DNA of 64,000 nt from the human T2T-CHM13v2.0 reference genome, Homo sapiens. Every line of letters begins with the position of its first letter. The stretch's first letter is position 1. The DNA is taken from NCBI RefSeq assembly GCF_009914755.1, contig NC_060940.1, one strand, 5' to 3'. The notes under the pieces are model-generated. The model worked only from the letters and a program-made list of their open reading frames with translations. It did not search any database and was not told where the DNA came from. The position numbers and the translations under genes are program-made. Positions 25,862 through 27,814 of the stretch are shown here, piece after piece.

Positions 25862-26675
25862 GAGGGTCTATTTCTGGGCTCTCTGTTCTGTTTTGTTAAC
25901 TTGTATGTCTGTCTTTATGCTAATACCATATTGTTTTGATTCCTGTGGCTTGGTAATAGTTTTTGAAATTGGGAAGTTTGAAGCCTCCAGTTTTGTTCCT
26001 TTTTCTTATAATGGTTTTGGTTATTTTGGGTCCTTTGACATTCCATATAAATTTTAGGATTTTTTTCTGTCTGAAAAATGCCATTGGGGTTTTGATAGAT
26101 ATTGCATTGAATCCACAAATTGCTTTGGGTACTATGGACGTTTTAACAACATTGTAATTGCCCAACAGTTTGTTCCTGACTGCTGCACAGACGAAACCAG
26201 TTCACTGAAAAGATGATGTTGCAGTAAAGAAAGAGTTTAATTGACCCTAGGCTAGCCACATGGGAGATGGAGTTATTACTCAAGTCAGCCTCCCCAAAGG
26301 CTTGGAGGTTAGGGTTTTTCAACGATAGTTTGATGGGCTGGGGGCCAGGGAATCGGTGCTGCTCTTTGGTTGGAGATGCCATCATAGGAGTGTAAAAACT
26401 TGTCCTGTGTGCTGAGTCCACCTTTGGGGGGGTTGGCAGCATCAGCTGAGCCATGAGTCATGAGTCTGGGTGGGGTCAGTCTGAAAAACATCTCAAAAAA
26501 CCAATCCTAGATTCTGCAAGAGTGATGTTATCTATAGAAGCAATTGCGGAAGTCACAACTCCTGTTACCTTTTGCCACGCCACTCCTGAGCAGTAAAAGG
26601 CATTATTGAAAATATGCCTACCTCATAGCAGAACTCAGGCCCTCCCGTCATCCTAATCTCATGGCTTTTCATTAG

Positions 26676-26870
26676 GTTTTTTTGTTGTTGTTGTTAGCAT
26701 TTAATGAACCTCCCTCCATGTGGCTTCCAGCCACCAGGACACAGGCCTCCGCAACCCCCTGCCTCCCAGACACCGTTAATCTTCTCCTCAGCTCTTTTGC
26801 TGAAGAATTTGGCTTTCATGGTGACACAATGCTTTGGGAGCTTTCCCTTTCCCAGAACCTTGCAGCAGCC
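26676..26870 (-). pseudogene. RPL27A terminal exon retrocopy with 3'UTR and poly(A)
   Basis: tctcttctag|[31 protein letters not shown] matches RPL27[38 protein letters not shown] 26705-26700, then A-rich tail. Confidence 0.9.
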
Positions 26871-26981
26871 CTAGAAGAGAAGAGAAAAAAGTTTACAATA
26901 CACTGTGGTAGGTACCAACTGCTTGATGGGTATGAGGAAAGAGGGCTGCTAACCCACTTTCCAAAACCCCAGGCAGGGTAT

Positions 26982-27106
26982 GTATGTTTCTGATCTGGGC
27001 ACTAAAGGAAGCAACAACTGCCCCCACCAGTGAATCAAGACCAGTAGATTCTCTCCAAGTACCGTAGCACACCAAGAGCTGTGTCAGCATGCGACTTAGT
27101 CTCGGC
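26982..27106 (-). ncRNA. SNORA3C: H/ACA snoRNA SNORA3 family retrocopy (SNORA3C)
   Basis: 125 nt, GCCGAGACTAAGTC...H box AGAGAA...ATCAGAAACATAC with ACA 3 nt from the end; closely resembles SNORA3B/ACA3-2, which is hosted in RPL27A. Confidence 0.88.
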
Positions 27107-27814
27107 AGCCTTTCATTTGTTTTACGAATACAGTTTCATTTCCAGAACAAGGAGGAGATCAGTTTTAGGGAGGGATGATTATCATCCTTACTTCAAAGTT
27201 AAACTATAAACTAAATTCCTCCCATGGTTAGCTTGGTCTACACCCAGGAATGAGCGAAGGACAGCCAGCCTGTGAGGCTAGAAGCAAGATGGAGTCAGCC
27301 ACGTTAGGTTTTTCTCATTGATATGTTTGCAAAGGCGGTTTTAAGATTGTCTTTTAATTCATGAACATGGAATGTCTTTTCGTTTACTTAGGTCTTCTTT
27401 AATTTTTTTTTTTTTTAAATTTGAGACGGAGTCTCGCTCTTTTGCCCAGGTTGGAGTGCAGTGGCGTGATCTCAGCTCACTACAACCTCCGCCTCCCGGG
27501 TTCAAGCAGTTCTCTGCCTCAGCCTCCTGAGTAGCTGGGGTTACAGGCACGCGCCACCATGCCCGACTAATTTTTGTATTTTCAGTAGAGACAGGGTGTC
27601 ACCATCTTGGCCAGGCTGGTCTCACACTCCTGACCTCGTGATCCACCCGCCTCGACCTCCCAAAGTGCTGGGATTACAGGCGTGAGCCACCACACCCGGC
27701 TGGGACGGTTTTCTTAATTTCATTTTTGGATTGTTCATTGCTAGTATATAGAAACACAGCTGATTTCTGAGTGTTAATTTTGTATCCTGCAACTGCTGAA
27801 TTTATTAGTTCTAA

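What the first reader, a model, noticed from the sequence alone, without database searches (positions are those of the whole stretch)
26664..27123. Fossil of a snoRNA-capped, polyadenylated host transcript: SNORA3 + RPL27A intron + last exon
Seen (minus strand): the insert starts at the snoRNA 5' end (27106), runs through the 125-nt H/ACA RNA, 111 nt of unspliced intron with a polypyrimidine/AG acceptor (26981-26871), the RPL27A terminal exon, ATTAAA and an A-tail. It is flanked by a degenerate TSD (GCTTTTCATTAGGTTTT 26664-26680 / GCCTTTCATTTGTTTT 27108-27123) inside an LTR8. Established: SNORA3A/B are intronic in RPL27A, and snoRNA retroposons carrying host sequence are a known class. Inference: the L1 template was neither mRNA nor mature snoRNA but a 5'-snoRNA-ended, intron-retaining, polyadenylated RNA (SPA-like). 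This implies RPL27A makes such a species in the germ line.
Basis: partly seen in the sequence, partly recalled or inferred. Interest (0 to 1): 0.75.

Follow-up and report, generated by a model that had tools for sequence, protein, structure and literature searches.

The report
Known snoRNA-plus-RPL27A-exon retrocopy (SNORA3C)
This is an old L1-made copy of an RPL27A RNA fragment that began exactly at the SNORA3B snoRNA and ran through the rest of the intron and the last exon to the poly(A) tail, a kind of insert first described in 2006, and this very copy was catalogued then.

Summary
Window 27106-26693 (minus strand) is collinear with the RPL27A locus on chr11: SNORA3B, then the 108-nt rest of the last intron, then the last exon to ATTAAA. 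Identity is about 90% in each segment. Homology stops at the snoRNA's first base, give or take 1 nt. A 12-nt A-rich tail follows the exon. The 16-nt target-site duplication is proven by 14 of 14 uninterrupted paralogues of the host repeat.

Three independent sibling inserts (chr4, chr12, chr8) share the same 5' boundary. Random 5' truncation is therefore excluded. The template was an RNA ending 5' at the snoRNA and polyadenylated at the normal RPL27A site.

This is not new. It is a Type-3 snoRNA retroposon as defined by Weber 2006, who proposed the same template RNA. Luo and Li 2006 list this locus as retrogene ACA3-2b and the chr12 copy as ACA3-2c.

"SPA-like" describes the product fairly, but the way it was made is not shown. 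The modern intron has no canonical poly(A) signal upstream of the snoRNA. The family name LTR8 could not be checked. Interest is low to moderate.

The parts
27108..27123 (-). 5' copy of the target-site duplication (16 nt), preceded by GT, which gives an L1 endonuclease-like site TTTGT|AAAAC
   Evidence: 14 of 14 aligned host-repeat paralogues carry this 16-nt stretch once and are continuous across it. Sequence read.
27107..27107 (-). One ambiguous T between the TSD and the snoRNA. It could be the parent's -1 base, an untemplated base, or a mutated 17th TSD base.
   Evidence: The parent has T at -1. The empty-site paralogues have C at this place.
26982..27106 (-). SNORA3C, a retrocopy of SNORA3B (H/ACA snoRNA). 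The H box AGAGAA and ACA 3 nt from the end are present.
   Evidence: Rfam RF00334, 98.9 bits, full model. 113 of 125 aligned bases are identical to the parent. The 5' hairpin is not recovered by the MFE fold.
26871..26981 (-). The whole part of RPL27A's last intron that lies downstream of the snoRNA, with polypyrimidine tract and AG
   Evidence: Collinear with L002 1633-1740; 98 matches, 10 mismatches, 3 gap columns.
26693..26870 (-). Sequence derived from the RPL27A last exon (the C-terminal 42 codons, now broken, plus the 3' UTR). ATTAAA is at 26700-26705. A 16-nt insertion lies at about 26760-26775.
   Evidence: Aligned to L002 1741-1902 with 148 matches, 14 mismatches and 16 gap columns. 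The parent exon is uL15 residues 107-148.
26681..26692 (-). Degenerate A-rich tail, (AAC)3 then AAA, which merges with the A run of the 3' TSD
   Evidence: Read. It begins where RPL27A processed pseudogenes also become A-rich, within about 10 nt.
26664..26680 (-). 3' copy of the target-site duplication (17 nt; one inserted C and one G-to-A change relative to the paralogues)
26152..27343 (-). Host interspersed repeat (LTR-like, about 750 bp without the insert, TG...CA termini) into which the retrocopy was inserted
   Evidence: The block shared among 15 paralogues is about 740-790 bp. Termini were read. The family name LTR8 was not verifiable.

Best explanation
This is a Type-3 snoRNA retroposon (Weber 2006) of SNORA3B/RPL27A. 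It is annotated as SNORA3C and was catalogued in 2006 as ACA3-2b.

Shown:
- The insert is a DNA copy of an RNA that was collinear with unspliced RPL27A from the first base of SNORA3B to the gene's normal poly(A) site.
- It was inserted by target-primed reverse transcription of the L1 type. The marks are a TTTGT|AAAAC target, a 16-nt TSD and an A tail.
- The insertion site is an older LTR-like repeat.

Inferred:
- The template's 5' end was fixed by the assembled H/ACA snoRNP blocking a 5'-to-3' exonuclease. This would follow a break upstream in the last intron, by endonucleolytic cleavage or by debranching of an aborted splicing intermediate.
- With the 5' splice site gone, the intron tail could no longer be spliced out, while the 3' end was cleaved and polyadenylated normally.
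- Because the copy is inherited, the RNA existed in germ-line or early embryonic cells.
- RPL27A made this species repeatedly. Three Type-3 copies of very different ages and one Type-2 copy all start at the same base.
For: 1. Collinearity. BLAST of the window region against the chr11 locus gives one hit, window 27107-26690 against L002 1501-1905. Identity is even across segments: snoRNA 0.904, intron 0.907, exon 0.914.
2. Parent identity. L002 carries two SNORA3 hits, at 290-419 and 1502-1632. The exon downstream of the second encodes uL15/RPL27A residues 107-148. 10 of 10 ordinary processed pseudogenes examined join L002 position 956 directly to 1740/1741, which defines the last intron.
3. 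Insertion hallmarks. The TSD is proven by 14 of 14 empty-site paralogues. ATTAAA and the A-rich tail are in place.
4. Recurrent 5' end. The whole-genome search with SNORA3B plus its intron tail scored 6 of 6 candidates: the parent, chr16, chr4, chr8, chr12 and a chr5 fragment.
   - chr12 and chr8 start at snoRNA base 1.
   - chr4 starts within 2 nt of it.
   - chr8 has a perfect 13-nt TSD abutting base 1.
5. Independence of the copies.
   - Each is closer to the parent than to any other copy: identity to the parent is 0.81 for chr4 and 0.80 for chr12, against 0.72 for chr4 versus chr12.
   - Their flanks share only dispersed repeats.
   - K2P distance to the parent is 0.105 for chr16, 0.223 for chr4, 0.239 for chr12 and 0.212 for chr8.
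6. Published class and mechanism. Weber 2006 (passages; section 8 read whole). Luo and Li 2006 Table 1, rows ACA3-2b (chr16:2786410) and ACA3-2c (chr12), and their 'partially processed, exon-containing hnRNAs'.
Against: - Nothing here shows the RNA itself. Its 5' chemistry, its abundance and the cells that make it are all inferred.
- The 5' junction is ambiguous by 1 nt (T at 27107) in chr16 and by 2 nt in chr4.
- One host-repeat paralogue (L018) gave a BLAST hit running 11 nt into the insert. I take this as alignment over-extension, but I did not align it.
- The TSDs of the chr4 and chr12 copies are degenerate and were read by eye.
- The modern intron has no AATAAA or ATTAAA upstream of the snoRNA, only a weak AATATA. 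So the upstream-cleavage route that defines SPA1/2 is not supported.
- The retained intron is the last one. A premature stop lies 3 codons into it, but no exon junction lies downstream. An NMD-cleavage route like that of the SNORD86 cSPA is therefore also not obviously available (inference).
Confidence: 0.9

Rival explanations
1. This is an ordinary L1 retrocopy of a full-length, intron-4-retaining RPL27A poly(A) transcript. Reverse transcription happened to stop at the snoRNA 5' end (random 5' truncation).
For: 5' truncation is common in L1-mediated copies. Truncated RPL27A pseudogenes exist: chr20:61.66 Mb starts 24 nt before the exon 4/5 junction, and there are two exon-5 fragments. Luo and Li report 39 5'-shortened H/ACA retrogenes.
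Against: Four independent inserts (chr16, chr4, chr12, chr8) begin within 0-2 nt of the same base. Their flanks are unrelated and their ages differ. With roughly 950 possible stop points in intron 4 plus exon 5, three further coincidences within a 3-4 nt span have a chance of the order of 1e-7 (my arithmetic). No copy with RPL27A intron sequence upstream of SNORA3B was found (6 of 6 candidates scored).
Confidence: 0.03
2. The template was a true SPA in the sense of Wu 2016. Cleavage and polyadenylation at an upstream site left a downstream product that XRN2 trimmed until the snoRNP blocked it, with transcription running on to the RPL27A poly(A) site.
For: The product anatomy is the same: a snoRNA 5' end and a poly(A) 3' end. 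According to the 2024 review, an H/ACA snoRNA (SNORA5C) can replace SNORD107 in forming SPA1 (passages).
Against: No canonical poly(A) hexamer lies in the 545 nt of intron between exon 4 and SNORA3B in the modern human gene. Ancestral sequences were not examined. Sequence alone cannot tell this route from Weber's endonucleolytic cleavage or from an aborted splicing intermediate.
Confidence: 0.15
3. This is a DNA-level (segmental) duplication of the 3' part of RPL27A, not a retrocopy.
For: The unspliced intron sequence is retained, which is otherwise typical of DNA duplications.
Against: Homology ends at the poly(A) site and is followed by an A-rich tail, not by the parent's downstream sequence. 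A 16-nt TSD at an L1 endonuclease-like site is proven by empty-site paralogues. The same boundaries recur at three other loci.
Confidence: 0.01

Closest known systems
Type-3 snoRNA retroposons (snoRTs), Weber 2006, PLoS Genet 2:e205 (PMC1687206)
   Same: Every defining feature matches: a start at the mature snoRNA 5' end, the entire downstream intron, the downstream exon(s) of the host gene, a consensus poly(A) signal and tail, and a TSD. The host is also a ribosomal-protein gene, as with U70/RPL10, where 30 of 42 pseudogenes are Type 3.
   Different: Only one exon lies downstream, so 'processed exons' is trivially met. RPL27A does not occur in that paper's main text (0 occurrences). Its supplements could not be opened. 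Type 3 is a minority here: 3 of 17 exon-5-bearing RPL27A retrocopies.
H/ACA retrogenes ACA3-2b and ACA3-2c, Luo and Li 2006, NAR 35:559 (PMC1802619)
   Same: ACA3-2b (intergenic, chr16:2786410, 86.3%, 'Retrogene', AC005570) is this locus. It is the only chr16 copy found in the genome. ACA3-2c is the chr12 sibling. Their Figure 1D/E class, 'partially processed, exon-containing hnRNAs', is the same idea.
   Different: The passages I saw do not say which structural class ACA3-2b was put in. The chr4 and chr8 siblings are not among the ACA3 rows of their Table 1.
SPA lncRNAs (SPA1, SPA2) and the cytoplasmic SNORD86 cSPA of NOP56
   Same: These RNAs have a snoRNP-protected 5' end and a poly(A) tail, made when a 5'-to-3' exonuclease is blocked by the snoRNP (review passages).
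   Different: All three known SPAs are capped by C/D snoRNAs. The 2024 review calls H/ACA-capped SPAs theoretically possible and still to be found. Here the RNA is only inferred from DNA fossils, and neither the upstream poly(A) route nor the NMD route is supported by the sequence.
H/ACA snoRNA-retaining transcripts bound by dyskerin (Genome Biol 2022, PMC9394076)
   Same: These are polyadenylated host-gene RNAs that keep an H/ACA-containing intron, bind H/ACA core proteins and can be 5'-truncated.
   Different: The mapped EIF4A1 example starts at the end of the upstream exon, not at the snoRNA 5' end. SNORA3 and RPL27A are not mentioned in the main text (0 occurrences).
Ordinary RPL27A processed pseudogenes
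   Same: They share the poly(A) site region and the L1-type insertion.
   Different: They are spliced across the exon 4/5 junction (10 of 10 examined) and lack both the snoRNA and the intron.

Membership tests
Type-3 snoRT (Weber 2006) | 5' end coincides with the 5' end of the mature snoRNA (a few untemplated nt allowed) | tested here: met
   Homology to the parent starts at 27106/27107. The Rfam model begins at 27106.
Type-3 snoRT (Weber 2006) | Entire downstream intron of the parental host gene is included | tested here: met
   111 nt against the parent's 108 nt, up to the AG. 98 matches, 10 mismatches, 3 gap columns.
Type-3 snoRT (Weber 2006) | Followed by the processed 3' exon(s) of the parental gene | tested here: met
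   The last exon of RPL27A follows; the parent exon is uL15 residues 107-148. Only one exon lies downstream, so no splice junction can be checked.
Type-3 snoRT (Weber 2006) | Consensus poly(A) signal, poly(A) tail and flanking TSD | tested here: met
   ATTAAA at 26705-26700 and a 12-nt A-rich tail. 16-nt TSD confirmed by 14 of 14 empty-site paralogues.
L1-mediated (target-primed) retrocopy | Insertion at a TT|AAAA-like endonuclease site | tested here: met
   The target reads TTTGT|AAAAC, one mismatch from the consensus. The consensus itself is as cited by Luo and Li.
SNORA3 family of H/ACA snoRNAs (Rfam RF00334) | Covariance-model score above the gathering score over the full model, with H and ACA boxes | tested here: met
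   98.9 bits against 51, model positions 1-131. AGAGAA is present, and ACA lies 3 nt from the end.
SNORA3 family of H/ACA snoRNAs (Rfam RF00334) | Stable hairpin-hinge-hairpin-tail fold, and accumulation as a snoRNP | tested here: inconclusive
   The MFE fold keeps the 3' hairpin but not the canonical 5' hairpin (z -1.45, against -3.89 for the parent). Expression is not testable here. There were 0 papers for 'SNORA3C'.
SPA lncRNA (Wu 2016) | RNA with an uncapped, snoRNP-protected 5' end and a poly(A) tail that accumulates in cells | not testable with these tools
   Only the DNA fossil is available. None of the 4 copies has an extra G at the 5' junction, which is weakly in line with an uncapped template.
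SPA lncRNA (Wu 2016) | Arises downstream of an upstream cleavage and polyadenylation site by XRN2 trimming | tested here: inconclusive
   No AATAAA or ATTAAA in the 545 nt upstream of SNORA3B in the modern intron, only AATATA at L002 1346.
   No repeat library was available. Shown only: a unit of about 750 bp, TG...CA termini and at least 15 paralogues.

The most novel reading that the evidence does not exclude
RPL27A has, for roughly the whole span of primate and perhaps eutherian evolution, produced a natural H/ACA-snoRNP-capped, polyadenylated RNA (SNORA3B, intron tail, last exon). This would be an H/ACA counterpart of the SPA lncRNAs, which a 2024 review says has not yet been observed. The RNA would be either surprisingly abundant in germ cells or strongly favoured by L1: it accounts for 3 of 17 RPL27A retrocopies that carry exon 5, although the competing mRNA is (from general knowledge) highly abundant. 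If it is still made today, it should be detectable as dyskerin-bound poly(A)+ RNA starting at SNORA3B +1.
Probability: 0.35. Interest if true: 0.5.

Novelty: already known. Interest (0 to 1): 0.25.

Why it matters
As a locus, it matters little. It is a correctly read textbook example of a retroposon class described in 2006, and it is already in RefSeq (SNORA3C) and in a published catalogue (ACA3-2b).

Its modest value is as evidence. The insert and its three siblings are DNA records that an H/ACA snoRNA-ended, polyadenylated fragment of a ribosomal-protein pre-mRNA existed in the germ line at several times. Type-3 snoRTs as a class are therefore a ready-made list of host genes where natural H/ACA-capped SPA-like RNAs should be sought. 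My searches found no paper that makes this link explicitly:
- 113 papers held at least 2 of the 5 terms. The 15 listed all had zero occurrences of the two SPA terms.
- 6 papers, all seen only as search listings. By their titles, five are general non-coding-RNA reviews. The sixth is the 2024 snoRNA review, and the passages of it that I read did not make the link.

Tried and rejected
- Copy-of-copy origin of the siblings: rejected. Each copy is nearest to the parent and the flanks are unrelated.
- A shared 'AAATGCT' after the poly(A) site in chr4 and chr12 looked like common descent: rejected. Older ordinary RPL27A pseudogenes (L015, and L009/L012/L014 with a variant) carry the same bases, so this is the ancestral 3' end of the mRNA.
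- LTR-driven expression of SNORA3C: considered and not supported. The host element reads in the same direction as the insert, with its ATTAAA about 90 nt before its 3' end. The insert sits about 235 bp from the element's 5' end, so an LTR start site would probably lie downstream of the snoRNA (inference only).
- NMD-derived cSPA route: considered. Intron retention gives a stop 3 codons into the intron, but no exon junction lies downstream, so this route is not favoured.
- Literature search for SNORA3C: 0 papers.
- Not available: the supplements of Weber 2006 and the earlier findings of this scan. Weber's supplementary figures may well show ACA3-2/RPL27A examples.
- No comparison with other primate genomes was possible, so ages rest on divergence only.
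Full report
WHAT IS THERE

On the minus strand, the window carries one contiguous insert. All coordinates are window coordinates.

| Part | Coordinates |
|---|---|
| 5' direct repeat (16 nt) | 27123-27108 |
| Ambiguous T | 27107 |
| H/ACA snoRNA (125 nt) | 27106-26982 |
| Spacer ending in a pyrimidine run and AG (111 nt) | 26981-26871 |
| Exon-like stretch | from 26870 |
| ATTAAA | 26705-26700 |
| A-rich tail | 26692-26681 |
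| 3' direct repeat | 26680-26664 |

Rfam places SNORA3 (RF00334) at 27106-26982. The match covers the full model at 98.9 bits, against a gathering score of 51, and is the only family match in 25000-29000.

THE PARENT

A search of the window's own genome with 27200-26600 (minus) returned 41 matches from 198 first-look candidates, 40 of them scored. The best match outside the window itself is chr11:8767192-8767596. It aligns as one collinear block to window 27107-26690.

That chr11 locus (L002) has these features:
- Two SNORA3 genes, at 290-419 and 1502-1632.
- An exon downstream of the second snoRNA that translates to the C-terminal 42 residues (107-148 of 148) of human ribosomal protein uL15/RPL27A.
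- A last intron defined by ordinary processed pseudogenes: 10 of 10 examined join L002 position 956 directly to 1740/1741. The downstream snoRNA lies 545 nt into this intron and 108 nt before its end.

Identity between the insert and the parent is even across the three parts, as expected for one event followed by neutral decay:

| Segment | Identity |
|---|---|
| snoRNA | 0.904 |
| intron tail | 0.907 |
| exon | 0.914 |

The 60 nt on either side align only as unrelated sequence does.

INSERTION HALLMARKS

The flanks belong to an interspersed repeat with a unit of about 750 bp, TG...CA termini and at least 15 paralogues among the fetched loci. I aligned 14 of those 15. All 14 run without interruption across the insertion point and carry the 16-nt target once. 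The window carries it twice, with one substitution in the 5' copy, and one inserted C plus one substitution in the 3' copy. The fifteenth paralogue, L018, was left out of that alignment; its BLAST hit over-ran the boundary by 11 nt.

The target reads TTTGT|AAAAC, one mismatch from the L1 endonuclease preference quoted by Luo and Li. The tail starts within about 10 nt of where RPL27A processed pseudogenes become A-rich. This is therefore an L1-type retrocopy, not a DNA duplication.

I could not confirm the family name LTR8, because no repeat library was available.

THE 5' BOUNDARY IS NOT AN ACCIDENT

A genome search with SNORA3B plus its intron tail scored 6 of 6 candidates: the parent, this locus, chr4:76.61 Mb, chr12:84.16 Mb, chr8:56.50 Mb, and a chr5 fragment.

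- The chr4 and chr12 copies have the same anatomy from the snoRNA to the poly(A) site.
- The chr8 copy starts at snoRNA base 1, directly after a perfect 13-nt TSD. It ends 16-21 nt before the 3' splice site in an A-rich tail.
- chr12 starts at base 1, and chr4 within 2 nt of it.
- All of them score above the Rfam gathering score over the full model: 84.9 bits (chr4), 58.0 (chr12) and 66.5 (chr8).

The copies are independent:
- Each is more similar to the parent than to any other copy. Identity to the parent is 0.81 for chr4 and 0.80 for chr12, against 0.72 between chr4 and chr12.
- K2P distance to the parent is 0.105 for chr16, 0.223 for chr4, 0.239 for chr12 and 0.212 for chr8.
- Outside the insert their loci share only dispersed repeats.

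The older copies lack a 4-nt duplication at the snoRNA 3' end that the parent and chr16 share. All copies keep 3 nt of intron that the modern parent has lost. This is what successive sampling of an evolving parent would give.

Random 5' truncation of a longer intron-retaining transcript would not place four independent ends within 0-2 nt of one base. Reverse transcription proceeds from the poly(A) end, so it crosses the whole snoRNA before reaching that point. The simplest reading is that the template ended there.

HOW IT MOST LIKELY AROSE

Shown: the template was collinear with unspliced RPL27A from SNORA3B +1 to the normal poly(A) site.

Inferred:
1. The H/ACA snoRNP assembled on the nascent intron.
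2. The RNA was broken upstream of the snoRNA.
3. A 5'-to-3' exonuclease trimmed it to the snoRNP boundary.
4. The fragment, now without a 5' splice site, kept the intron tail and was polyadenylated normally.
5. L1 proteins copied it in germ-line or early embryonic cells.

The nature of the upstream break is open.
- The SPA1/2 route needs an upstream cleavage and polyadenylation site. The modern intron has no AATAAA or ATTAAA in the 545 nt before the snoRNA.
- An NMD route like that of the SNORD86 cSPA is conceivable, because intron retention puts a stop 3 codons into the intron. But this is the last intron, so no exon junction lies downstream.
- Endonucleolytic cleavage (Weber's proposal) or debranching of an aborted lariat intermediate remain the most economical options.

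WHAT IS KNOWN

Weber 2006 (PMC1687206; passages, section 8 read in full) defines three types of snoRNA retroposon.
- Weber explains it by endonucleolytic cleavage of the host pre-mRNA, followed by exonucleolytic degradation up to the snoRNA 5' end, with normal polyadenylation.
- For U70 in RPL10, 30 of 42 pseudogenes are of this type.

Within the SNORA3/RPL27A family I found all three types:
- Type 3: chr16, chr4 and chr12.
- Type 2: chr8 and two SNORA3A-derived copies on chr21 (both 5'-truncated).
- Type 1: chr5, a 5'-truncated copy.

Luo and Li 2006 (PMC1802619; passages including part of Table 1, section 11 in full) list ACA3-2b (intergenic, chr16:2786410, 86.3%, Retrogene, AC005570) and ACA3-2c (chr12). 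Only one SNORA3B-like copy exists on chr16, so ACA3-2b is this locus. They also describe retrogenes from "partially processed, exon-containing hnRNAs".

A 2024 review (PMC11028025, passages) lists only C/D-capped SPAs and expects H/ACA-capped ones to be found. A 2022 study (PMC9394076, passages) describes dyskerin-bound, 5'-truncated H/ACA-retaining transcripts; SNORA3 and RPL27A do not occur in its main text.

My searches found no explicit link between SPAs and Type-3 snoRTs:
- One search found 113 papers holding at least 2 of the 5 terms. The 15 listed all had zero occurrences of the SPA terms.
- One search found 6 papers, which I saw only as search listings. By their titles, five are general non-coding-RNA reviews. 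The sixth is the 2024 review above, read in passages only.

Wu 2016 and the SNORD86 cSPA paper were not read. They are cited through the review and from recall.

FREQUENCY

A search with a spliced RPL27A pseudogene returned 23 matches (20 of 20 candidates scored), which fall at the parent and 17 other loci. Of those 17:

| Category | Loci |
|---|---|
| Type-3 copies | 3 |
| Carry upstream exon sequence (11 span the exon 4/5 junction; 1 has an internal deletion across it) | 12 |
| Uninformative exon-5 fragments | 2 |

These are lower bounds of a word-based search.

STATUS OF SNORA3C AS A GENE

The boxes are intact and the Rfam score is good. But the copy has lost 5 nt in the 5' hairpin, and the MFE fold does not recover that hairpin. 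The z-score is -1.45, against -3.89 for the parent, which folds canonically. In the supplied table it lies outside every annotated host transcript. Whether it is expressed cannot be decided here; no paper in the library mentions SNORA3C.

VERDICT

The kind, and this very locus, are already in print. The remaining interest is the untested prediction that an H/ACA-capped, polyadenylated RPL27A RNA exists in germ cells.

Noticed in passing
L003 1485-1910 (chr4:76.61 Mb) and L008 1496-1712 (chr8:56.50 Mb): These two SNORA3B-derived retrocopies (a Type 3 and a Type 2) are not among the ACA3 rows of Luo and Li's Table 1. The chr8 copy has a perfect 13-nt TSD and ends 16-21 nt before the 3' splice site, near where a branch point is expected.
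   Followed up: partly
L038 1501-1905 (chr21:38.38 Mb) and L039 1501-1847 (chr21:40.27 Mb): These are SNORA3A-derived retrocopies. L038 starts 13 nt before the snoRNA 3' end and carries the whole downstream intron to within 1-2 nt of the 3' splice site, then an A-rich tail and a 16-nt TSD. L039 starts at snoRNA position 53 and carries about 260 nt of intron before an Alu.
   Followed up: partly
L036 about 1478-1568, minus strand (chr5:158.25 Mb): This is a 5'-truncated SNORA3B-like 3' hairpin, followed by about 8 nt of intron and a run of 23 A (Type-1-like).
   Followed up: no
L002 1890-1910 and pseudogene loci L004-L015: The end of the RPL27A 3' UTR has changed over time. Old retrocopies read AACAAATGCT or AACAACTGCT after ATTAAATGCT, while young ones and the modern gene read AACTACTT. 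This makes the 3' end a rough age marker for RPL27A retrocopies.
   Followed up: partly
L002 953-965 (chr11 parent): Retention of the last RPL27A intron would put a stop codon 3 codons into the intron (GTA AGT TAA), with no exon junction downstream.
   Followed up: no
window about 26760-26775 (-): A 16-nt insertion lies in the exon-derived part relative to the parent and the siblings. The stop codon of the former reading frame has also changed (TGA to TGG).
   Followed up: no
window 27353-27500 and beyond (-): The tail of an Alu, with a poly(A) run at about 27400-27412, lies about 55 nt upstream of the 5' end of the LTR-like host repeat. One host-repeat paralogue (L026) aligns through this stretch too, which I did not explain.
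   Followed up: no
window 26982-27106 (-): The 5' hairpin of SNORA3C is not recovered by the MFE fold, and the Rfam score falls from 146 bits (parent) to 99. The two C-to-T changes in the 3' hairpin upper stem keep pairing as G-U.
   Followed up: partly
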